Virus record (IMG/VR): IMGVR_UViG_2513237219_000004
Location: 1 to 38,856 of that record
Source of the DNA: a virus
Taxonomy: Duplodnaviria > Heunggongvirae > Uroviricota > Caudoviricetes
Length of the DNA: 38,856 nt
Strand: one strand, 5' to 3'
Below the pieces are notes generated by a model, which saw only the letters and a list, made by a program, of their open reading frames with translations, had not been told where the DNA came from and searched no databases. The position numbers were made by a program, and so were the translations under genes. This document shows, piece after piece, positions 1-38,856 of the stretch (position 1 is its first letter; the number at the start of each line of letters is the position of its first letter).

Positions 1-1305
1 CTATGCTTGTTTAATTACATCTGATCCCACAGCGTGGGGCATGGATGGGGCAAACTCACTCAATTTCTGGTTTAAAATGGATACCTGATCCTGATTGTTT
101 TCTGCCATCCACGATCCGTAAACGCGATAAACCATCTGAGCATCAGAGTGTCCCATTTGCTTCGCGATGAAGTTAGGGTTAGCTCCAGCGGTCAAAGACC
201 AACATGCATAAGTGTGCCTGGACTGATATGCTTTGCGGTAGCGAATCCCGGCGCGTCGCATTGCAGTTTCCCATGACTGATTAATCGACCCAACTGCATA
301 ATGGTACCCGGCAAGGCCATTACGCGTAACGATTTGCGGATTGAAAACAAAAGTGCATGGATGCATTTCAGTTCGACCATACTCACGAAGTTTCACTTCA
401 ACCTGATACTGCTTACCAAGCCGTGTCATTTCAGCCTGATTCTTAAGCACGTCTATTGCTGGTTGAATTAGGTTGATAACACGGTTTGTTCCCGCTTCGG
501 TTTTAGGAAGAGTGAACTCTTTCGTTAATGTGTGGTTTCTTCTGATCGTCATTGTCCCTGCCTTCAGGTCTATATCTTCCCATGCCAGAGAAACCAACTC
601 CCCGTGGCGAACTCCCGTATAAACAGCCAGTGACCACATATTTTTTAACTGCTGATGCTTAAATGCGTTAATCAACCTGACAAATTCATCACGGGTTAAC
701 GGATCAGGTTCCGTTCGTGATCTCTTCAGTTGCGAAATGGCTGCGAACGGATTTTCTTTGATGTATCCGCTGTCGGCTGCGAACTGAAACATCCCCGCCA
801 TGGTGTTCATGTAGTTATTAACAGTTGGCACGGAACGTCCCTTAATGGGTGTTTTTTGCCCACGTTTCAGAACATGATATCCGGTCAGCAAATCCTTTCG
901 TATGAACAGCAGTTCTTCCTGAGTCACAGCAGATGCAAGTCTGTTGCCTCCGATTCGGGGAACCATATTTCTTACAATGGAGCTGTAACGCCCCATCGCA
1001 TTGGTACTGATTTCCAGCTTTTTCAGATCCAGCCATTTCTCAGCCAGGTCTGCGACGGTAATTTCCTTACTTTCCGCACCAAATTTTCTCAGGTTGGGAG
1101 AGTCCGGAAACTGAGCGGCATAGTCGAAATTACCCGTCTTAATGGAAAAACAAACAGATGCTCGTAGCTCGCCAGCTATTTTCCTGTTTTTTGGTGTATC
1201 CGGCACACCGAGACTTTCCCGCACTCGTGTGCCTTTATACATGAACCATATGCGGAGTGATCCGCCATGGTTCTCAACGCCTGTTGGGTATGCTGTCTTA
1301 GCCAT
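1..1305 (-). CDS. int: Tyrosine integrase
   Basis: 434-aa ORF with C-terminal R..H..R..Y-type catalytic region (HTYACWSL...GHSDAQMVYRVYGSW); GGAGGG RBS before ATG at 1305; stop at position 1-3. Confidence 0.9.
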   Translation of the reverse strand: MAKTAYPTGVENHGGSLRIWFMYKGTRVRESLGVPDTPKNRKIAGELRASVCFSIKTGNFDYAAQFPDSPNLRKFGAESKEITVADLAEKWLDLKKLEISTNAMGRYSSIVRNMVPRIGGNRLASAVTQEELLFIRKDLLTGYHVLKRGQKTPIKGRSVPTVNNYMNTMAGMFQFAADSGYIKENPFAAISQLKRSRTEPDPLTRDEFVRLINAFKHQQLKNMWSLAVYTGVRHGELVSLAWEDIDLKAGTMTIRRNHTLTKEFTLPKTEAGTNRVINLIQPAIDVLKNQAEMTRLGKQYQVEVKLREYGRTEMHPCTFVFNPQIVTRNGLAGYHYAVGSINQSWETAMRRAGIRYRKAYQSRHTYACWSLTAGANPNFIAKQMGHSDAQMVYRVYGSWMAENNQDQVSILNQKLSEFAPSMPHAVGSDVIKQA

Positions 1306-3854: not shown

Positions 3855-4561
3855 TGGTTGCCTCCTTTGCGAAGCTGGGCGGCGATATCTTCGAGAACGC
3901 CATCAGAGAATGAGCGGTCAAAATCGCCTTCCGGCGCATTAGCCATAAACTCAGTAGAGGTAAGAATCATCCTGGCAATATCCGCGGCGTTCTTTGCAGT
4001 ATCATCAATAAAACCAGCTTCCCAGGCAGCCAGCATTCTGTTCGCCACAAAGTAAGCTCCCTCCTTGCGTGCTTCAGTCTTCACTTCAGCCAGGAAAGCG
4101 TCGGTGGCCGGGGTTTTGTTATCTGACTCCAGCCACTGGTTGTAGTAATAATCGAACATGCCAGTAGGATAACCACATCCGCTGTGCACGTGGTCTTTCA
4201 TAGCAGAACCACACATGCAGTAGTCATTGTCAGTATTACTAATGATGTCGATAAGTTGCTGTGTCCGTTGCTTCAACATCGCATTCTCCGCCGCCAGCGC
4301 CGAAAACTTCTCGTGTGCCAACTTAACAGCTGCATCAGCCTGCTTAATTGACTCAGTCGCTTTCTGGTGGTCTTCGGCCAGCCCTGCTAAATCAGCCTCC
4401 AGTTCGGCTAGGCGTTCATTTAATGCATCTCGTTCATCCAGTAGAGCCAGCACAACCTGAGGTGTTACTTTCATACGAAATGCCAGCAATTTTTGAGGCG
4501 TTGCTACTGTTTCAATTGCTACTGCTGCCTCACGCAGTGCCTGATAGTCAATCTTGCTCAC
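3851..4561 (-). CDS. Ead/Ea22-like protein (paralog)
   Basis: Track ORF 3851..4642 trimmed to GTG at 4561 (VSKIDYQALREAA...) preceded by AAGGAGG; N-terminus parallels the neighbouring Ea22-like gene. Confidence 0.6.
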   Translation of the reverse strand: MSKIDYQALREAAVAIETVATPQKLLAFRMKVTPQVVLALLDERDALNERLAELEADLAGLAEDHQKATESIKQADAAVKLAHEKFSALAAENAMLKQRTQQLIDIISNTDNDYCMCGSAMKDHVHSGCGYPTGMFDYYYNQWLESDNKTPATDAFLAEVKTEARKEGAYFVANRMLAAWEAGFIDDTAKNAADIARMILTSTEFMANAPEGDFDRSFSDGVLEDIAAQLRKGGNQ

Positions 4562-10262: not shown

Positions 10263-10784
10263 TCAAAATTTTGGCAGATCGTCCTGGTCTACGTACCTAG
10301 TGTGTTTCACAATAGCTGAAACAAAATGCATTTTATCAACTTCTTCAACAGGAAGAGTGATTGGACGGTGATCGCTGTTTATACTACTAAACTGATAGTC
10401 TCCGTCTCTTGTTTTGTTCATGATCTTTATCATGTTATGACCATCTTTGGTCCTTACAAAGACTTCATCACCTGGATGTACTGGCGTATTTGGTTCAATA
10501 ACAACATATTCTCCTGACTGAATCCTTGGCCACATGCTGTCACCCTTAACCTTCAGACCGTAAGCATCTTTATCGCCACTGTAGATGCTTAACCAACCGG
10601 ATCTGAATTCAATCATATCCACTGAGCCATCAACTCCCAAAACGGCTTCACCAATTACCGGAACAAAACCCGCACGAACGTTACCCGCAAACTCAAGATG
10701 GTCTGCAGATCCAACTTTGCTATCTGCAAGCATGTCCATCCATCCGCGTGGGAGATTAAAAGATTTTTCAATTAGTTCCATCAT
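10263..10784 (-). CDS. cI: S24 (LexA/CI-type) autopeptidase domain, C-terminal piece of CI-like repressor
   Basis: 173-aa ORF with GDSMWPRIQSGEYVVIE and GDEVFVRTKDG motifs; no HTH and no SD before its ATG; the frame stays open 36 codons upstream without a start. Confidence 0.75.
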   Translation of the reverse strand: MMELIEKSFNLPRGWMDMLADSKVGSADHLEFAGNVRAGFVPVIGEAVLGVDGSVDMIEFRSGWLSIYSGDKDAYGLKVKGDSMWPRIQSGEYVVIEPNTPVHPGDEVFVRTKDGHNMIKIMNKTRDGDYQFSSINSDHRPITLPVEEVDKMHFVSAIVKHTRYVDQDDLPKF

Positions 10785-10788
10785 ATCG

Positions 10789-10950
10789 TCAGCAATGCGT
10801 TTTTTTCCGTCTTTTTCCTTCCGGATACAGCATTCTGGAAACGTATGATGGTTCCCTTTCTATTCGACGAGCCAACTCTGAGGCCTTTCCATTACAGAAT
10901 CGGTCTCTTATCTCTATCAGCCTTAGTCGTCTTTGTTCGTATTTATCCAT
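10789..10950 (-). CDS. cI: HTH DNA-binding piece of CI-like repressor (53 codons, then TGA)
   Basis: Not in ORF track. Manual translation MDKYEQRRLRLIEIRDRFCNGKASELARRIEREPSYVSRMLYPEGKRRKKTHC; HTH-like GKASELARRIEREPSYVSRM; ATG 21 bp from an operator palindrome; ends in another frame just before the S24 ORF. Confidence 0.6.
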   Translation of the reverse strand: MDKYEQRRLRLIEIRDRFCNGKASELARRIEREPSYVSRMLYPEGKRRKKTHC

Positions 10951-16913: not shown

Positions 16914-17272
16914 ACGAATATCAGTTTGTGCTTCCATACCCGCCGTCGGTGAATACCTACTGGCGAAGACGGGGAAGCCAATACTACATCAGCGATAAAG
17001 GCCAGAAATACCGAAAAGACGTTCAGCAAATCATCCGCCAACTCAAGTTAGACATTTTCACCAAATCACGACTCCGCATCAAAGTCATCGCAGACGTTCC
17101 AGACTCCCGCCGCCGCGACCTCGATAACATCCTGAAAGGTTTACTCGACTCCCTTATCCACGCCGGATTTGCGGAAGACGACGAGCAATTCGATGACATT
17201 CGCGTAATTCGTGGTGTGAAAGTACCAGGCGGACAGCTTGGAATAAAAATCACCGAACTGGAGAACGCATGA
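16910..17272 (+). CDS. rusA: RusA Holliday-junction resolvase
   Basis: 120 aa; LPYPPSVNTYW and DSRRRDLDNILK motifs match RusA. Confidence 0.85.
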   Translation: MNEYQFVLPYPPSVNTYWRRRGSQYYISDKGQKYRKDVQQIIRQLKLDIFTKSRLRIKVIADVPDSRRRDLDNILKGLLDSLIHAGFAEDDEQFDDIRVIRGVKVPGGQLGIKITELENA

Positions 17273-17457
17273 ACGCCACAATTCAAACGATACCAGAGCT
17301 TCTTATCCAGACACGAGGCAATCAGACCGAAGTGGCAAGGATGCTTTCCTGCGCAAGAGGAACAGTGCTCAAGTACAACCGAGACAACAAAGGCGAGCGT
17401 CACGTAATAGTTAACGGCGTCCTGATGGTCAAACAGGGCAAGAGGGGAAGACCATGA
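17269..17457 (+). CDS. ninH: NinH
   Basis: 62 aa; GNQTEVARMLSCARGTVLKY matches lambda NinH HTH. Confidence 0.8.
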   Translation: MNATIQTIPELLIQTRGNQTEVARMLSCARGTVLKYNRDNKGERHVIVNGVLMVKQGKRGRP

Positions 17458-20327: not shown

Positions 20328-20825
20328 ATGAAATCATTAACCCTCTTCAATCAACCAATTCGTATCGGTGAAGATGGCATGATCTGCCTCACTGATATGT
20401 GGAAAGCCAGTGGTAAAAGTGAATCTGAATCGCCTTACCACTACCTGCGAAACAAGCAGACCAAAGAGTTCTTAGCCGAGCTGGAGAAAAACCACGAATC
20501 TGTGGTTTTTACTGAGCGCGGTGTACACGGTGGAACATATGGCGGGAAGTTTGTTGCTTACGATTATGCGGCTTGGTTAAACCCCGGGTTCAAGTACGCG
20601 GCCTATAAAGTCCTCGATGACTACTTCACCGGAGAACTTCAGCATCGCAACAGCTTAAGTGCGCAGCTCAACATGAAATGTCATGAGTTTGACCAGAAGA
20701 AAGACATGGCGAGCTTCTGCGGACAAGGGCTGGCAGCATGGCGCTATACGAAGCCAGTGTTGGTCGCTGAGATTAACTCCCTGGCTAACCAGCTGCAGAT
20801 TACGATCCCCGGGCTTCCGGGATGA
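20328..20825 (+). CDS. KilA-N domain protein
   Basis: 165 aa; N-terminal LTLFNQPIRIGEDGMICLTDMWKASG recalled as KilA-N/Bro-N-like. Confidence 0.65.
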   Translation: MKSLTLFNQPIRIGEDGMICLTDMWKASGKSESESPYHYLRNKQTKEFLAELEKNHESVVFTERGVHGGTYGGKFVAYDYAAWLNPGFKYAAYKVLDDYFTGELQHRNSLSAQLNMKCHEFDQKKDMASFCGQGLAAWRYTKPVLVAEINSLANQLQITIPGLPG

Positions 20826-21097
20826 GTGATCGGGTTATTGAATGCGCCTCCAGAGCGGGGCGCGACTTCTCAGAGTTCATGAAAGGCGAGAAGGGCATGA
20901 TGGAAGCATTGGCCTCGGTGGATGAGTTTGGCGAGCAGCTGCGCCTCAACGGCTGTGTCAATCATCACTTTGTTAGCTACATGATGCGGAACTCGATCAT
21001 GCAGGCATTCATGGACATGGCAAAAGCCGAGAGGAAAGAAGAGCGCCGGCGTAAGCGAGCGGAAGCAAAAGCAAAAGCAAAAGCAAAAGTGAAGTAG
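20822..21097 (+). CDS. Hypothetical protein with C-terminal KAKAKAK tail
   Basis: 91-aa ORF, ATGA overlap with upstream gene; GCAAAA x4 DNA repeat at 21066..21089. Confidence 0.5.
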   Translation: MSDRVIECASRAGRDFSEFMKGEKGMMEALASVDEFGEQLRLNGCVNHHFVSYMMRNSIMQAFMDMAKAERKEERRRKRAEAKAKAKAKVK

Positions 21098-21322
21098 CCA
21101 TTACAAAGCCCATCTACGGGTGGGCTTGATAATGAAACCGGAATTTATTCTGGGCAACCAGTTACGGCAGTACCGCGAAACAACCCAAGCCAGTAAGTGG
21201 GGAAATAACACTGGCAGCCACTGAAAGATGAACCTCCTGCCTTATGGCAAAAAAGATTCTTTGTGGTGGCGGACTGATGGAAAGACATCCTAATCAAGCA
21301 ACCACTCCACAGGGTCATAATT

Positions 21323-21703
21323 ATGAACGACCAGCAAATCGAAAAAGAAATCGTTGAGAAAGGCAAAACCGCTCCGCGAGTTACCCCGCAGCACATCGAA
21401 GACGTGATTAAAAGCGAGCATTACTTTACTGCTTATGATGGACGAAATGGTGCCATTTCCAGCAACGAATATTGTGGCAGGGAAAAACCAGAAGAAGGCG
21501 ATCGTGATTTATCACCATTGAAGTTACTCACTTTCTGCGTACTGGTGCTGAAGAATGGCTTCACCGTCACCGGAGAGAGTGCCTGTGCAAGCCCTGAAAA
21601 CTTTGATGCAGAAATTGGTCGGAAGATTTCCCGGCAGAATGCTGTAAACAAAATCTGGATGCTCGAAGGTTACTTGCTGAAGCAGAAGCTAAGCGAACAG
21701 TAG
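21323..21703 (+). CDS. N4 Gp49 / Sf6 gp66-family protein
   Basis: 126 aa; MNDQQIEKEIVEKGKTAPRVTPQHIEDVI...FTVTGESACASPENFDAEIG recalled as Gp49/Gp66 family. Confidence 0.65.
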   Translation: MNDQQIEKEIVEKGKTAPRVTPQHIEDVIKSEHYFTAYDGRNGAISSNEYCGREKPEEGDRDLSPLKLLTFCVLVLKNGFTVTGESACASPENFDAEIGRKISRQNAVNKIWMLEGYLLKQKLSEQ

Positions 21704-30669: not shown

Positions 30670-31370
30670 TGGCGGATTCGAATCTCAACACTCCTGTTAT
30701 TGTGCAGGCGACGCGGCTCGATACATCAATCCTTCCACGCAATATCTTCTCGCAGTCGTATCTGCTTTACGTTATCGCGCAAGGTACTGATGTTGGTAAC
30801 GTGGCTAACAAGGCCAACGAGGCCGGACAGGGCGCTTACGATGCTCAGGTGAAAAACGATGAACAGGATGTCGAACTGGCTGACCACGATGCAAGAATCA
30901 CCGCAAACACAAAAGCGATAAATCTCCTTGAGGTCAGGTTAACAACCGCCGAAGGGAAGATAGTCGTACTGCGTAGCGATGTTGATTACTTGCTGGATGA
31001 GGTTATCGATATTCAGGCGCATCTGGTCACTGTTGACCAAAGACTGGATGGCGTAGAAAGCGATGTATCTGACATTAAGAGTGATTACGTATCGAAAACC
31101 GTAACCGAATCGCAGTCTCTTGCGTCACCGCTGGATGTAAAAACATCATATTCAGTTGATGGAATTCAGGTTGTTGGAGCAAGAAATACCGGATGGACTG
31201 CAGCCACAGGTACACCTCTTCTTGGCTCATTCAACGCTAACCAGTCATACACGGTCGGCACTACGTACACACAATCCGAAGTCGCGGCTCTCGCTACAGG
31301 TTTGCAGCAGGCGCGGCAGCGTATTCTGGCGCTTGAAACAGCACTTAGATTACATGGGCTGATTGACTGA
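30669..31370 (+). CDS. Tail needle protein (P22 gp26 type)
   Basis: 233 aa [43 protein letters not shown]... and C-terminal ...[21 protein letters not shown] match P22 gp26. Confidence 0.9.
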
Positions 31371-31825
31371 TGATTACATTCAAACCAACGCGAAACATCG
31401 ACTTGATCGAAGCAGTCGGAAATCACCCTGACATTATTGCCGGGAGCAACAACGGTGATGGATACGACTATAAACATGATTGCCGTTACTTTGAGGTGAA
31501 CGTGCACGGGCAGTTCGGCGGCATTGTTTACTATCAGGAGATTCAGCCGCTGACATTCGATTGCCACGCCATGTACCTGCCAGAGGTTCGCGGCTTCAGC
31601 AAGGAAATCGGGCTGGCGTTCTGGCGATACATTCTGACTAACACCACTGTTCAGTGTGTCACATCGTTCGCTGCGCGCAAATTCCGCCACGGGCAGATGT
31701 ACTGCGCAATGATTGGCCTTAATCGTGTAGGAACCATCAAGAAATACTTCAAAGGCGTGGATGACGTGACATTTTACAGTGCTACACGCGAAGAACTAAT
31801 CGAATTCCTGAATCACGGGAGATAG
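31370..31825 (+). CDS. Head completion protein (P22 gp14 type)
   Basis: 151 aa, position and size. Confidence 0.75.
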   Translation: MITFKPTRNIDLIEAVGNHPDIIAGSNNGDGYDYKHDCRYFEVNVHGQFGGIVYYQEIQPLTFDCHAMYLPEVRGFSKEIGLAFWRYILTNTTVQCVTSFAARKFRHGQMYCAMIGLNRVGTIKKYFKGVDDVTFYSATREELIEFLNHGR

Positions 31826-31827
31826 CC

Positions 31828-32520
31828 ATGTTATATGCATTTAAGCTGGGCAGAAAACTGCGCGGCGAGGAACCTTATTGCCCTGAAAAAGGCGGGAAAG
31901 GTGGCAGTTCTGATAAAAGCGCAAAGTATGCCGCAGAAGCTCAGAAGTATGCAGCAGACCTGCAAAATCAGCAGTGGCAGACGATCATGAAAAACCTTGC
32001 TCCGTTCACGCCGCTTGCGGAGCAGTATGTTAACCAGTTGCAGAATCTTTCCAGTTTAGAAGGTCAGGGGCAGGCACTTAATCATTATTACAACTCTCAG
32101 CAGTATAAAGACCTTGCAGGTCAGGCGCGCTATCAGAGTCTGGCGGCAGCGGAAGCAACAGGTGGATTGGGTTCCACTGCAACCGGTAATCAGTTAGCAA
32201 CAATCGCACCAACGCTTGGTCAGCAGTGGCTGTCTGGTCAGATGAACAACTACCAGAATCTGGCAAACGTTGGGCTTGGTGCTCTGCAAGGTCAGGCAAA
32301 CGCCGGGCAGACATATGCCAACAACATGAGTCAGATTTCGCAGCAAAGTGCGGCGCTGGCGGCGGCAAACGCCAACCGACCGTCAGCATTGCAGCAGGGT
32401 GTTAGTGGTGCTGCATCCGGTGCACTTTTGGGGGGTGGCATAGCCAGTGCTCTCGAGCTATCAACTCCGTGGGGTGCTGGTATCGGTGCTGGTCTTGGTC
32501 TGCTCGGCTCGTTGTTTTAA
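31828..32520 (+). CDS. Ejection protein (P22 gp7 type)
   Basis: 230 aa MLYAFKLGRKLRGEEPYCPEKGGKGGSSDKSAKYAAEAQKYAADLQNQQWQ... matches P22 gp7. Confidence 0.85.
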   Translation: MLYAFKLGRKLRGEEPYCPEKGGKGGSSDKSAKYAAEAQKYAADLQNQQWQTIMKNLAPFTPLAEQYVNQLQNLSSLEGQGQALNHYYNSQQYKDLAGQARYQSLAAAEATGGLGSTATGNQLATIAPTLGQQWLSGQMNNYQNLANVGLGALQGQANAGQTYANNMSQISQQSAALAAANANRPSALQQGVSGAASGALLGGGIASALELSTPWGAGIGAGLGLLGSLF

Positions 32521-32530
32521 GGGGTAATCA

Positions 32531-33826
32531 ATGGCTACGTGGCAAGGATCAAATGGCGGATTGTTAGCTGGTATCGGCGGCGTCAACTCAAACGCTCCGA
32601 GCGTAAATGACATCGGCAATACGCTTCAGCTTATCAGGCAGAACAATGATATTGAGCGTTCAGGCGCTAACAATGTTGGGCTGACTGCTTTGCAAGGTCT
32701 TTCAGGTATTGCAGGGGTGTTTCAGCAGGGAAAGCAGGCTCAGCGGCAGAAAGAATTTCAGCAGGCGTACGCTAATGCTTATGCGTCTGGTGATCGCGGT
32801 GCTTTGCGTCAGTTGGCTACTCAATATCCAGACCAGATTGAATCCGTTCGTAAAGGCATGGGATTCATTGATGAAGACCAGCGCAACTCTATCGGCACCT
32901 TAGCGGCTGGCGCTCGCCTTGCGTCATCATCTCCAGAAGCGATGCAATCATGGCTGCAAAACAACGCCAAGGAACTGACTCGCGTCGGTGTTGACCCTAA
33001 CAGCGTTGCTCAGATGTATCAGCAGAACCCTTCAGGATTTGGTGAGTTTGTTGATCACCTTGGAATGGCTGCTCTTGGTCCGATTGATTACTTCAATGTT
33101 CAGGACAAGATGGCAGGTCGTGAGATTGACCGAGGCAGGCTGGCAGAGACAATCCGCAGCAATCAGGCTGGAGAGGCGCTAACAGCGCGTGGTCAGGACA
33201 TCCAGATACGTGGACAGAACATCAGCGCACAGAATGCTGCTCTTTCCCGCGAAATACAAAGAGCAGAATTACAAGAAAAGGCTCTGGACAGACAAATAGC
33301 CAGAGAAAGCAATCAGTTAAAGCTTGAAGAGCTAAAACAGAAACAGGCAGATGTTCGGCAAAAGGCTGACATAGCCCGCGCTGACAGGCAGGCCGCCGCT
33401 CAGGGTGCAGTTGATACATTCAGCACCGCGCTTGATTCTCTCAACGAGATAGAGCAAAGCCCCGGCCTTTCAAAAGCAGTAGGAATTCGCTCAGCGTTTC
33501 CGACAGTTCCTGGCTCTGATGCAGCTAACTTTGAAGCAAGGCTCGACACCTTTAAAGCTCAAACATTCCTTCCTATGGTGCAGTCCCTTAAGGGTATGGG
33601 GGCTCTTTCAGATGCTGAGGGTAAAAAATTATCCGATGCGGTTGGTGCCCTAAGCCCCAAAATGAGTGAAAAGGCTTTTCGTGACTCTATCGGAAAGATT
33701 AGAAATCAGCTTGAAAGCAAGTTGAGCACTGTTAAAAAACAGTTTGATTATCAGGAGCCGGTGCAGAATATGCCAGGGCAACAATCTACTACTGGCAGTA
33801 ACTTTTCTTCACTATGGGGTGATTAA
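32531..33826 (+). CDS. Ejection protein (P22 gp20 type)
   Basis: 431 aa, position after gp7; coiled-coil rich. Confidence 0.75.
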   Translation: MATWQGSNGGLLAGIGGVNSNAPSVNDIGNTLQLIRQNNDIERSGANNVGLTALQGLSGIAGVFQQGKQAQRQKEFQQAYANAYASGDRGALRQLATQYPDQIESVRKGMGFIDEDQRNSIGTLAAGARLASSSPEAMQSWLQNNAKELTRVGVDPNSVAQMYQQNPSGFGEFVDHLGMAALGPIDYFNVQDKMAGREIDRGRLAETIRSNQAGEALTARGQDIQIRGQNISAQNAALSREIQRAELQEKALDRQIARESNQLKLEELKQKQADVRQKADIARADRQAAAQGAVDTFSTALDSLNEIEQSPGLSKAVGIRSAFPTVPGSDAANFEARLDTFKAQTFLPMVQSLKGMGALSDAEGKKLSDAVGALSPKMSEKAFRDSIGKIRNQLESKLSTVKKQFDYQEPVQNMPGQQSTTGSNFSSLWGD

Positions 33827-34185
33827 TGGCTAAAGCATGGAAAGATGTTATCGCCTCTCCACAGTATCAGGCGTTAGCACCAGAACAAAAAGCGCAGGCT
33901 CAGGAGCAATACTTCAATGAAGTCGTGGCCCCGCAAGCCGGAGAAAATGCAGAGCAGGCTAAGCAAGCTTTCTATGCTGCCTATCCATTGCCATCTGTGC
34001 AGACAGTGGAGACACAACAACCAGTATCACAGCAACAACCACAGCAAAGTGGATTTATGTCTGATCTTGGCGAAGCAGTAAAAGAGACTGGTCGCGGACT
34101 GGTGCAGGCTGGCGTGAACGTGGCAAACATACCTGCATCAGTTGCCGATGCTGTAACCAAGCGCGGCGGCTTGGGCTGGCGGTAA
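33826..34185 (+). CDS. Ejection protein gp16-like, N-terminal piece (frame 1)
   Basis: 119-aa ORF starting with TAATG overlap on gp20 stop; ends at TAA 34183..34185 while the next frame is already open from 34157. Confidence 0.55.
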   Translation: MAKAWKDVIASPQYQALAPEQKAQAQEQYFNEVVAPQAGENAEQAKQAFYAAYPLPSVQTVETQQPVSQQQPQQSGFMSDLGEAVKETGRGLVQAGVNVANIPASVADAVTKRGGLGWR

Positions 34186-34270
34186 ACTCGGTATTGGCGA
34201 TGGGACATATCAACCAGCACCACGAGTAACAACGCAGGGATTAGAGCAGGACTTTGGCCTTCAGCAAGGT

Positions 34271-35824
34271 GTGCTGACTCCACAAACGACAGAGGGAAGG
34301 GTATTTGCTGAAGCATTGCCTTACCTCACTCCTGCTGGCGTTGAGAGAGCGGCGGCACAGGCACCAACACTTGCTGGTCGAATTGCTCAGGGGGCAACTC
34401 GACTTCTCGCAGAAAACGCAGTTGGATCACTTGCTGCAAACAGTATGAAAGATGATGCGGAAGCACTCGCTACCGATTTAGGTGTTGGCGTTCTGGCAGG
34501 CGGCGCTATTAACGCTGCTGGACGTGGATTAGGTGCTGCTTATCGTGGCGTTCGCGGTGCTATTGCGCCAGAAGCGCAGCATGCTATCAGATTTGCAGAG
34601 CGTGAAGGAGTGCCTCTGCACACCACAGACCTGTTACAACCTACTTCCCGCGTCGGAAAAATGGCGCAAACGACAGCAGAAAATATCCCCCTGGCTGGCA
34701 CAAGCGGAATGAGAGCAACGCAACAGGAAGCGAGAAGCCAGTTGGTGCAGAGATTTGCTGATAAATTCGGTGAGTATGATCCAGCGGTTGTTATTGACAG
34801 CCTTAAAGCGAAAACATCAGGAATTCGTCGCGCCGCAGGAAATCGACTGGAGCAGGTTCAGAATGCCATGGCGGGAATAAACATTCAGCCTGCAAGAGCA
34901 ATTCAGCAGATTGATACAGAAATATCTAACCTGCAGAAGCTTGGTAAGGTTGCTGATAACGAGACTATTTCAAAACTTCAGTCCTATCGTGATGAGCTTG
35001 TTCGCAATGCTGGTCCTGATGGTCCGGTAAATCTGGATTTGAAGCAATTAAGCGATCTGCGCAGCCAGTTCAGAATGGACGTGAAGGGGGAGCGACCAGT
35101 GTTACCAAACCGTTCCGATGCTGCCATTCAGCGCGTTTACAAGGCAATGACCGACGATATCAATGGTGCCATTGGTCAGAATCTTGGCAACGATACTCTC
35201 CGTAAATATCAGCAAGCCAATGCCGTCTACGCTGACGAAGCGGCTAAACTAAAGAATACCAGGCTGAAGAATGTTCTCATGAAAGGCGACCTGACGCCGG
35301 AAGTTGTCAACAACATGCTATTCAGCAAGAACAAATCGGAAATTAAGACGCTGTATAACTCAGTTGGTCGTGTTGGCAGGGCGCAAATGCGCAATGGCAT
35401 CATTGGAAAGGCGATGGAGAAATCTGGCGGATCCCCTGACCAGTTCCTTCGGCAGCTTAATATCCTGCAAAACCAGACTGGCATCACATTTAAAGGTCAG
35501 GAAGCCGCTTATCTGAAAGGATTAAAAAACTACCTGCAATCCACGCAGCAGGCTGCAAAAGCGGCAATAACAACACCCACAGGGCAGCAAACTATCCCGT
35601 TCATTATTGGGTATGGGACGGCAATGAACCCGGCTACAACTGGCGCAGCAGTAAGCTACGGACTTCTTACTCGCGCCTATGAGAGCGAGCCATTCAGAAA
35701 TGCAATGCTCCGAATGGCAAACACCCCACGCGGATCGACAGCGTTTGAGAAAGCCATGCAGCAAGCGCAAAAAGCGATTAATGCACTGACGCAGGGTGCT
35801 AAGTCTGATTCGTTGTCAGAATAG
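34271..35824 (+). CDS. Ejection protein gp16-like, C-terminal piece (frame 2)
   Basis: 517-aa track ORF from a GTG without clear SD; its frame is open back to 34157 with no ATG, so it is probably the continuation of 33826..34185. Confidence 0.65.
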   Translation: MLTPQTTEGRVFAEALPYLTPAGVERAAAQAPTLAGRIAQGATRLLAENAVGSLAANSMKDDAEALATDLGVGVLAGGAINAAGRGLGAAYRGVRGAIAPEAQHAIRFAEREGVPLHTTDLLQPTSRVGKMAQTTAENIPLAGTSGMRATQQEARSQLVQRFADKFGEYDPAVVIDSLKAKTSGIRRAAGNRLEQVQNAMAGINIQPARAIQQIDTEISNLQKLGKVADNETISKLQSYRDELVRNAGPDGPVNLDLKQLSDLRSQFRMDVKGERPVLPNRSDAAIQRVYKAMTDDINGAIGQNLGNDTLRKYQQANAVYADEAAKLKNTRLKNVLMKGDLTPEVVNNMLFSKNKSEIKTLYNSVGRVGRAQMRNGIIGKAMEKSGGSPDQFLRQLNILQNQTGITFKGQEAAYLKGLKNYLQSTQQAAKAAITTPTGQQTIPFIIGYGTAMNPATTGAAVSYGLLTRAYESEPFRNAMLRMANTPRGSTAFEKAMQQAQKAINALTQGAKSDSLSE

Positions 35825-36810: not shown

Positions 36811-36833
36811 ATGCAATCACATCATGGTTGCAT
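36811..36833. promoter_or_regulatory. Candidate operator: inverted repeat ATGCAA-N11-TTGCAT
   Basis: Perfect 6-bp arms between the divergent mnt-like and tailspike genes. Confidence 0.3.
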
Positions 36834-36858
36834 CATATCATTCGTCTGGAGCAATGAA

Positions 36859-38856
36859 ATGTCAGATATCACCGCAAATGTTGTGGTAAGCATGCCTTCG
36901 CAACTCTTCACTATGGCTCGTTCTTTTAAAGCCGTAGCTAATGGAAAGATTTATATCGGAAAAATTGACACTGACCCGGTAAATCCTGAAAACCAGATTC
37001 AGGTTTATGTGGAGAACGAAGACGGCTCTCACGTTCCTGTATCGCAACCAATCATCATTAACGCTGCTGGTTACCCCGTATACAACGGACAGATTGCCAA
37101 GTTTGTAACTGTGCAAGGCCATTCTATGGCTGTTTATGATGCGTACGGTGCGCAGCAGTTCTATTTTCCTAATGTGCTGAAGTATGACCCGGATCAGTTA
37201 AGGCAAGAACTTTTAAGTTCAGATGATGGGCTTGGTGATTCATTAATCACAGTAAAACAACCTTTAATTAATTCTACAAAACGAACACAGCATGATAAAA
37301 ATGCAGAGAATATTAGTATTCTTGATTTTGTAAAACATGAAGATGTTAGCGACATTGTTAATGGCAATATTGACGCAACACACATATTTTCCTATGCATC
37401 TTCAGTTTCACCTGACGGTGTTTATGTTCCACAAGGTACTTATTTAATTGATGGCTATATTAATGGAAAATTTTATGGCCCTGGTAAAATAATACAAAGT
37501 AAAGGAGACGAACCTATTCCATTTGCAAATCCTGCTCAGACAATTGGAAATGTTTTTTTGGGTTTTGATGCTGGCAAGCTATATAATGGAAATGATATAT
37601 CTGGGCAAGTTGTTGCGATTGGACCAAGTGCTGGAAGAAACATTAGCACGGGCAATAACATTACAGCAATTGGGACAGGTGTATTATCAGGTGATACCCT
37701 TCAAGACGATCTCACAGATACATCGCCATGTACTGGCACTGAGATTGTAGCAATTGGTGTGAATGCGTGCAAAAAAGCAACCACAGCTAGTAACATAATT
37801 GGAATTGGGCGCGATGCCCTAAATGAAAATAAAGAAGGAAATTTTAATGTTGCAGTAGGATCAAGTGCATTACAACAACTTCATACTGGTAGTGGTAATG
37901 TTGCAATAGGTCGAGCGGCTGGAATGCGAGCTGGAATTGTTACAGACCAATCAGGCAAAAGGTTGTCTTATAACATTCTAAATAATAACACATTTATAGG
38001 CAATGCATCCGGAAGGGAGATTACAAATGGAGATAACAATACATATATTGGTAGCGGATCAGGAAGAGGGATTTCTTCTATAGATAACCCTTATACAGGC
38101 ACATCTACAGGTATGAATAATGTCGCAGTAGGAGCCGACTCACTTAATTCTATTGGTTCGGCAAGTAACAATGTAATGCTTGGATATAGATCTGGTAGAT
38201 CGTTAAGCTCTGGAACAGGTAATATATTTATCGGAACCAATGCTGGTTCGGCAATTTCTTCAGGTGACAACCAATTAATAATTGCTAATCAGAGCGGGCT
38301 CCCTTTTTTGAGTGGGTTGATGGGACCTGTTTCTGATGAGAATAATTATGCTCGTTTTGATGCGTCGGTACAACCAGCAACAGATAACGCTAGAAATTGC
38401 GGTTCAGCATCCAGAAGGTGGAATACAATATTTGCTGGCACTTCAACGATTAACACATCGGATGGTCGAGTTAAGACTGATAAAAGACCGATTACTGATG
38501 CAGAGAGACGTGTTGCATATAAAATAAAGGGTTTGGTTTGTTGTTTTAGATTTATAGATTCAGTAATTGAAAAAGGAGAAAATGCTAGATTACATTTTGG
38601 CATTATTGCCCAAGATGTATATAAAGCATTTGCTGAAGAAGGGCTTGATGCAAACGACTATGGTCTTTTTTGCTATGATAAATGGGAAACTGAATACGAA
38701 CCAGTAATTGCTAAAAAGATAATTTTTGATGAAGAATCCGGTGATGAAAAATTAATTGAATATGATACTGGAGAACGCAGAATATCTATAGAAGGGGGTG
38801 AGCGATATGGAATAAGATATGAAGAATTATTATGTTTTATAATATCTGCAATATAA
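36859..38856 (+). CDS. Tailspike: P22 gp9-like head-binding domain + Gly-rich repeat receptor-binding region + C-terminal intramolecular chaperone (S74-like)
   Basis: Internal ATG of track ORF 36811..38856; [47 protein letters not shown]... matches P22 gp9 N-terminus; C-terminus SDGRVKTD...[24 protein letters not shown] resembles S74 chaperone domains; distal two thirds AT-rich. Confidence 0.85.

What the first reader, a model, noticed from the sequence alone, without database searches (positions are those of the whole stretch)
33826..35824. gp16-like ejection protein gene is split between two reading frames
The ORF starting at the gp20 stop ends at TAA 34183..34185, but the next frame is open from 34157 and continues 517 codons with no ATG and no SD before its first GTG (34271). 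One extra nucleotide within 34157..34185 would explain this, and its removal gives a single ~665-aa protein. In P22 gp16 is needed for DNA delivery, so if real this cripples infectivity.
Basis: seen in the sequence. Interest (0 to 1): 0.55.

Follow-up and report, generated by a model that had tools for sequence, protein, structure and literature searches.

The report
Likely sequencing error splits prophage gene
One extra C splits the DNA-ejection gene (P22 gp16 / Sf6 gp13 type) of an E. coli prophage into two frames, but the extra base occurs only in this low-coverage 454 record and not in three otherwise identical copies, so it is most likely a sequencing error.

Summary
The gene after the gp20-like gene starts at ATG 33826 and stops at TAA 34183..34185. 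The +1 frame is open from 34157 to 35824.

The cause is one extra C at 34157/34158 (GTAACCAAG; every relative examined has GTAACAAG). Removing it gives a 1998-nt, 665-aa protein that is 98% identical to Sf6 gp13. That protein is identical to the one encoded in three other E. coli assemblies, which match this part of the prophage with 0 mismatches.

The window is CP002291.1 (E. coli P12b), positions 1189730..1228585. That genome was built from 13.5x Roche 454 plus 2.9x Sanger reads.

Compared with a sister assembly, the record carries two further single-base insertions inside this prophage. One of them splits the cI-type repressor, which a live lysogen with intact lytic genes should not tolerate.

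The inserted allele was found in no collection searched. There is no slippery motif, no conservation and no downstream decay.

Verdict: most likely a consensus error in the record (about 0.8). A real private mutation in the P12b stock is the main rival (about 0.18). Programmed frameshifting is effectively excluded. Interest is low.

The parts
33826..34185 (+). 5' piece of the gp16-like (Sf6 gp13-type) ejection-protein gene. Codons 1-111 are authentic; the last 8 codons (KRGGLGWR) and the TAA are out of frame.
   Evidence: aa 1-111 align to Sf6 gp13 at 97%
34157..34158 (+). CC where all relatives have a single C: the one-base insertion that causes the frameshift (CP002291.1 positions 1223886-1223887)
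34159..35824 (+). 3' piece of the same gene in the +1 frame, equivalent to aa 112-665 and including the stop. The frame is open from 34157; the first possible start is GTG 34271.
32531..33826 (+). gp20-like ejection protein gene (431 aa, PF16928), intact. Its stop overlaps the gp16-like ATG.
31828..32520 (+). gp7-like ejection protein gene (230 aa, PF25688), intact
10263..10950 (-). cI-type S24 repressor gene split into 53-aa and 173-aa pieces by a second private one-base insertion at 10810. It is listed because it bears on whether the gp16 frameshift is real.

Best explanation
The gene is an ordinary single-ORF P22 gp16 / Sf6 gp13-type ejection (DNA transfer) protein gene, the last of the gp7-gp20-gp16 operon of a P22-like (Lederbergvirus-type) prophage beside fliE in E. 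coli P12b. The split is caused by one extra C at window 34157/34158. That base is most likely a consensus error of the 454-based assembly CP002291.1 (a single C called as CC), not a feature of the DNA in the cell.

Shown: the position of the extra base, its absence from all relatives, and the sequencing method of the record. Inferred: that it is an error.
For: 1. Source. The window is 100% identical to CP002291.1 at 1189730..1228585. That record is E. coli P12b (AFG39966.1), sequenced with Roche 454 FLX at 13.5x plus Sanger at 2.86x (PMC3378880).
2. Identical copies lack the base. Three other assemblies (UGBH01000002.1, DABDEP010000052.1, AATIFF010000087.1) match the window over 12.3, 6.5 and 4.8 kb around the gene with 0 mismatches and one gap, which is this C. 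All three encode the 665-aa protein that repairing the window gives.
3. The allele is private. A 36-nt pattern with the extra C gave 0 matches in genome, viral and metagenome contig collections. The same pattern without it gave 66 viral contigs. All 39 listed full-length E. coli matches spanning 1998 nt lack an extra base; the one listed match of 1999 nt has its extra base elsewhere and lacks this C. The 119-aa and 517-aa fragments are absent from a 15-billion-protein collection, while the repaired protein is on 6 contigs there.
4. The record has other private insertions. Against UGBH01 it carries two more one-base insertions in the same prophage: T4 to T5 at 4490, and an A beside A5/A7 runs at 10810.
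5. One of them is biologically implausible. The 10810 insertion splits the cI-type repressor. The intact 228-aa repressor is on 398 contigs, and the 173-aa form on one long contig, that of P12b (a second 173-aa cluster member sits on a 595-bp ENA contig and was not compared). A repressor-null prophage whose lytic genes are otherwise full length should kill its host.
6. No decay. There are no stops and no substitutions downstream of the shift relative to the intact copies.
Against: - No reads could be inspected, so the error is inferred, not seen.
- C to CC is a 1-mer to 2-mer overcall, which from general knowledge of 454 chemistry is less typical than errors in long homopolymers.
- The comparison strains are not shown to be P12b itself. 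UGBH01 differs from the window at 21 substitutions elsewhere in the prophage, so a genuine strain-specific mutation remains possible.
- UGBH01 has a private one-base deletion of its own in fliP, so it is not error-free either.
Confidence: 0.8

Rival explanations
1. A real, recent +1 insertion in the P12b stock. The prophage would carry a null allele of the gp16-type gene. On induction it would assemble normal-looking, DNA-filled particles that cannot deliver DNA, as P22 mutants lacking gp16 do.
For: The base is present in the deposited finished genome, whose authors report verifying low-quality regions. Single-gene inactivation is a common early step in prophage decay (general knowledge). P22 ejection proteins are dispensable for assembly but absolutely required for DNA delivery (PMC4992974), so such a mutation carries no cost for the lysogen. 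The absence of further decay fits a very recent event.
Against: The allele appears in no other assembly or collection. The same record has a companion private insertion that breaks the cI repressor, which cannot easily be real. The data are low-coverage 454.
Confidence: 0.18
2. Programmed +1 ribosomal frameshifting or transcriptional slippage within 34157..34185 joins the two frames, so the split is a regulated way of making the full-length protein.
For: Skipping one base after ACC (34156..34158) would give exactly the Sf6-type sequence ...AVTSAAAW.... This follows automatically from any one-base insertion.
Against: Recoding sites are conserved, but all relatives examined encode the protein in one frame. 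There is no run of 4 or more identical bases in 34141..34190. From reading the sequence, there is no prfB-like CUU-UGA or other known +1 shift motif. The P-site codon before the stop is CGG, which would re-pair poorly in the +1 frame (inference).
Confidence: 0.01
3. Two separate functional proteins: a 119-aa N-terminal protein and a 517-aa protein started at GTG 34271.
For: Both ORFs exist.
Against: No homologue is organised this way. A single 665-aa protein is the rule: the 90% identity cluster has 1304 members, and 13 of the 15 listed are 665 aa, the other two being shorter entries, at least partly labelled partial. One PHROG 770 profile match runs continuously across the junction, 19-665 of the protein on 3-666 of 668 profile positions. 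GTG 34271 has no properly spaced ribosome-binding site. 37 conserved codons (aa 112-148) would be lost.
Confidence: 0.01

Closest known systems
Shigella phage Sf6 gene 13 protein (NP_958189.1, 665 aa, 'DNA transfer protein', P22 gp16 analogue)
   Same: 96.8% nucleotide identity over the whole gene and 98.2% amino-acid identity after removing the extra C (654 of 665). It has the same length (1998 nt), the same position after the gp20-like gene with a one-base stop/start overlap, and the same gp14-gp7-gp20-gp16 order.
   Different: The window has one extra C at 34157/34158, so as written the gene reads as 119-aa and 517/555-aa pieces.
Salmonella phage P22 gp16 (609 aa) ejection protein
   Same: Same operon position and the same family name (PF26808 Phage_P22_gp16 on the identical intact protein; PHROG 770). 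Function is inferred by homology: ejected with gp7 and gp20, and required for DNA delivery but not for assembly.
   Different: About 74% nucleotide identity over part of the gene to P22-like Salmonella phages. Lengths differ, 609 against 665 aa. No function was tested here.
Frameshifted copy of the same gene in E. coli GN25 (NZ_CP139196.1, R2X35_RS07175, marked 'frameshifted')
   Same: The same gene interrupted by a one-base indel, in an assembly where neighbouring genes are also flagged as frameshifted. This illustrates that such splits are commonly assembly noise.
   Different: GN25's indel lies elsewhere. At 34157/34158 it has the single C (L005 with 2 gaps).

Membership tests
P22 gp16 / Sf6 gp13 ejection (DNA transfer) protein family (PHROG 770; Pfam PF26808) | Full-length match to the family profile | tested here: met
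   The repaired protein matches PHROG 770 at E=8e-238 over residues 19-665, on 3-666 of 668 profile positions, in one stretch. The identical 665-aa protein in L075-L077 carries PF26808. The Pfam copy used returned no such family, and NCBIfam returned none.
P22 gp16 / Sf6 gp13 ejection (DNA transfer) protein family (PHROG 770; Pfam PF26808) | Synteny: last gene of the gp14-gp7-gp20-gp16 block, upstream of the mnt/tailspike region | tested here: met
   Window genes 31370..31825, 31828..32520, 32531..33826 and 33826..35824, followed by the Mnt/Arc-like gene and the tailspike. Sf6 and Gally have the same order.
P22 gp16 / Sf6 gp13 ejection (DNA transfer) protein family (PHROG 770; Pfam PF26808) | One uninterrupted ORF of about 600-720 aa | tested here: not met
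   As written the gene is split at 34157/34158. It is met once one C is removed.
P22 gp16 / Sf6 gp13 ejection (DNA transfer) protein family (PHROG 770; Pfam PF26808) | Protein packaged in the virion, ejected on infection, required for DNA delivery | not testable with these tools
   Known for P22 from the literature; not tested for this prophage.
Programmed ribosomal frameshift / transcriptional slippage site | The two-frame arrangement is conserved among homologues | tested here: not met
   None of 77 related loci has it (73 plus L075-L077; these include 66 viral loci that were selected with the single-C pattern). The insertion pattern gave 0 matches in three collections.
Programmed ribosomal frameshift / transcriptional slippage site | Slippery motif or homopolymer run in the overlap of the two frames | tested here: not met
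   No run of 4 or more identical bases in 34141..34190. No known +1 motif on reading the sequence.
Sequencing or assembly indel artefact | The record was made with an indel-prone method at modest depth | tested here: met
   454 FLX at 13.5x plus Sanger at 2.86x.
Sequencing or assembly indel artefact | The allele is private to that record while independent assemblies of the same element lack it | tested here: met
Sequencing or assembly indel artefact | Other private single-base indels occur in the same record, including biologically implausible ones | tested here: met
   Insertions at window 4490 and 10810; the latter splits the cI repressor.
Sequencing or assembly indel artefact | Read-level evidence of miscall | not testable with these tools
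   No reads were available.
Decaying-prophage pseudogene (real mutation) | Further degenerative changes, or the same lesion in related strains | tested here: not met
   0 substitutions against the intact copies over 4.8-12.3 kb. All other late genes are full length. The lesion occurs in no other sequence.

The most novel reading that the evidence does not exclude
The extra C is genuine in E. coli P12b. This reference strain would then carry a freshly inactivated gp16-type ejection gene and would release complete but non-infectious P22-like particles on induction. That would be a natural single-step example of prophage domestication at the DNA-delivery step.
Probability: 0.18. Interest if true: 0.15.

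Novelty: not a real feature. Interest (0 to 1): 0.06.

Why it matters
The value is mainly for data quality. The split gene, and the split cI repressor in the same prophage, should not be read as biology or used to call this prophage defective without resequencing. CP002291.1 does not annotate the gp16-type gene at all, and it annotates a truncated repressor. If the base were real, the consequence would be the well-known gp16-null phenotype: particles that cannot deliver DNA. That would be unsurprising.

Tried and rejected
- **Programmed frameshift or slippage.** Rejected: no conservation and no motif.
- **Two-protein organisation starting at GTG 34271.** Rejected: homologues are single proteins, and one profile spans the junction.
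- **Other frame breaks in the window.** A tblastn screen with 1080 reference ORFs found only the gp16 break as a consistent event. That screen missed the cI break because no close reference was loaded at that point. The cI break emerged later, from the direct comparison with UGBH01.
- **Protein family and structure searches on the repaired protein.** Pfam gave only a sub-threshold, irrelevant hit. NCBIfam gave nothing. The PDB sequence search gave nothing.
- **Looking for the frameshift allele elsewhere.** Exact-pattern scans of the genome, viral and metagenome contig collections, and exact-protein look-ups of both fragments, all returned nothing.
- **Testing whether the NCTC assembly UGBH01 is strain P12b itself.** A literature search did not settle it.
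- **Int1157.** The integrase studied in the P12b genome paper lies at 1255726-1256928. It is not this prophage's integrase.

Full report
**1. The observation**

- The gp20-like gene (32531..33826, 431 aa) ends in a TAA whose last base starts the ATG of an ORF that stops at TAA 34183..34185 after 119 codons.
- The +1 frame has a TAA at 34154..34156 and is then open to 35824. Its first ATG/GTG/TTG is GTG 34271, giving 517 aa.
- AAGG ends 1 nt before that GTG, so there is no normally spaced ribosome-binding site.

**2. What the gene is**

- Megablast finds the 1999-nt interval in Sf6 at 96.8% identity and in Gally, vB_EcoP-720R6, vB_EcoP-683R2 and VSe13. In each the match spans 1998 nt.
- In Sf6, Gally, 720R6 and VSe13 that span is annotated as one CDS of 665 aa: Sf6 gene 13, 'similar to phage P22 gene 16 protein'.
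- 258 complete E. coli genomes carry a full-length copy. 39 of the 40 listed span 1998 nt.
- Alignment places one extra base in the window: GTAACCAAG against GTAACAAG, so the extra C is 34157 or 34158. All 73 related loci then in hand have the single C.
- Removing one C gives a 665-aa protein with no internal stop. It is 98.2% identical to Sf6 gp13. It matches PHROG 770 'DNA transfer protein' continuously over residues 19-665.

**3. Context**

- The window runs from the stop codon of an integrase (1..1305, minus strand) to the stop codon of the tailspike (36811..38856). It is a complete P22-like, lambdoid-mosaic prophage.
- All other late genes are full length against references: small and large terminase, portal, scaffold, coat, gp4, gp10, gp26, gp14, gp7 and gp20.

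**4. Source of the window**

- An exact-protein look-up with the window's gp20 returned four assemblies.
- One of them, CP002291.1, is 100% identical to the window, extra C included. The window is CP002291.1 positions 1189730..1228585.
- That record calls no gene between gp20 and the next minus-strand gene.
- The record is E. coli P12b (AFG39966.1). Its paper states Roche 454 FLX at 13.5-fold coverage plus 2.86-fold Sanger shotgun (PMC3378880).

**5. The decisive comparison**

- The other three assemblies (UGBH01000002.1, DABDEP010000052.1, AATIFF010000087.1) match the window over 12,326, 6,546 and 4,754 aligned positions with 0 mismatches and a single gap, which is this C.
- All three encode exactly the repaired 665-aa protein, annotated PF26808 Phage_P22_gp16.
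- A 36-nt pattern containing the extra C has 0 matches in the genome, viral and metagenome contig collections. The version without it has 66 viral-contig matches.
- In a collection of about 15 billion proteins, the repaired protein is present on 6 contigs, in a 90% identity cluster of 1304 members; 13 of the 15 listed are 665 aa. The 119-aa and 517-aa fragments are absent.

**6. Is the base real?**

- Comparing CP002291.1 with UGBH01 over about 48 kb shows three one-base insertions private to CP002291.1, all inside this prophage:
  - window 4490: T4 to T5, 16 nt upstream of an Ead/Ea22-like gene;
  - window 10810: an A inserted in GGAAAAAG[A]CGGAAAAAAA on the repressor strand;
  - window 34157/34158: the gp16 site.
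- The 10810 insertion splits the cI-type S24 repressor (228 aa in UGBH01 and DABDEP01) into 53-aa and 173-aa pieces.
- The intact repressor sequence is seen on 398 contigs. The 173-aa form asked about is seen on a single contig, that of P12b; a second 173-aa cluster member lies on a 595-bp ENA contig and was not compared with it.
- A prophage with no repressor but intact N, O, P, Q, lysis and morphogenesis genes should not be maintainable. This is an inference from lambdoid biology. At least that insertion is therefore very probably a consensus error.
- All three insertions fit 454 error types as I know them: homopolymer overcall, or carry-forward next to a run.
- Together with the private status of the C and the lack of any downstream decay, I put about 0.8 on artefact and about 0.18 on a real private mutation.
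- UGBH01 has its own private T6 to T5 deletion that splits fliP, so no single assembly is a perfect reference. At the gp16 and cI sites, however, two or three independent assemblies agree against CP002291.1.

**7. Rivals**

- **Programmed +1 frameshifting or slippage.** Excluded for practical purposes. The arrangement is not conserved. There is no homopolymer of 4 or more bases and no known shift motif in the 29-nt overlap. Relatives make the same peptide in one frame.
- **A genuine two-protein arrangement.** Contradicted by the family profile spanning the junction and by all homologues.

**8. If it were real**

- P22 ejection proteins gp7, gp16 and gp20 are not needed for assembly but are absolutely required for DNA delivery. 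Deletion mutants make morphologically normal particles (PMC4992974).
- Sf6 gp13 is the 665-aa counterpart (PMC8954989).
- The phenotype would be the classical gp16-null one, which is not novel.

**9. Verdict**

The observation and the structural interpretation are confirmed. The feature itself is most likely a sequencing artefact in a 2012 454-based genome record. Interest is low.

Noticed in passing
window 10263..10950 (- strand); insertion at 10810: The prophage's cI-type S24 repressor is also split, into 53-aa (10789..10950) and 173-aa (10263..10784) pieces, by a one-base insertion private to this record. UGBH01 and DABDEP01 encode the intact 228-aa protein, whose exact sequence is on 398 contigs. 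A repressor-null prophage that is otherwise intact is implausible, so this points to assembly error.
   Followed up: yes
window 4490: A third private one-base insertion relative to UGBH01 (T5 against T4). It lies 16 nt upstream of the ATG (4474) of an Ead/Ea22-like gene on the minus strand, in an intergenic or RBS region. No third assembly was available to arbitrate.
   Followed up: partly
window 11..130 and L074 12575..12694 (CP002291.1, about 250 bp past the tailspike stop, outside the window): The 3' end of the integrase gene is repeated at 97% identity (116 of 120) just beyond the right end of the prophage, where a 51-aa integrase C-terminal fragment is called. This looks like attL/attR with the attachment core inside the int 3' end. 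The prophage sits directly beside fliE, and several unrelated lambdoid prophages use the same integrase and site.
   Followed up: partly
window 17053..17337 and 20766..21475: 17 of the 19 substitutions between CP002291.1 and UGBH01 in the 21.4-kb stretch aligned (L078 against L079) fall in two short patches (rusA/ninH region; KilA-N/gp49-like region), while the rest is identical. Possible causes are patchwise recombination with other lambdoid prophages, or repeat collapse in one assembly.
   Followed up: no
L090 21067 (UGBH01000002.1, fliP; outside the window): The NCTC assembly has its own private T6 to T5 deletion that splits fliP into 193-aa and 52-aa pieces. All other assemblies have the 245-aa form. 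This is either a long-read homopolymer error or a real motility mutation in the stock.
   Followed up: no
window 33826..33971: The first ~146 nt of the gene are shared at 96.6% with phage CurroJimenez_Bas106, where the match to the window's gene ends there (7% of the gene covered). This suggests a mosaic boundary just after a conserved N-terminal segment of gp16-type proteins (H28).
   Followed up: no
window 36811..38856: The tailspike (681 aa from the first ATG; 665 aa as called in the other assemblies) resembles the reference tailspikes used only over its first ~173 aa (88% identity), the region of the PF09008 head-binding domain. Its C-terminal part carries a Peptidase_S74 domain, so the receptor-binding part differs from the P22, Sf6 and Gally tailspikes compared here.
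   Followed up: no
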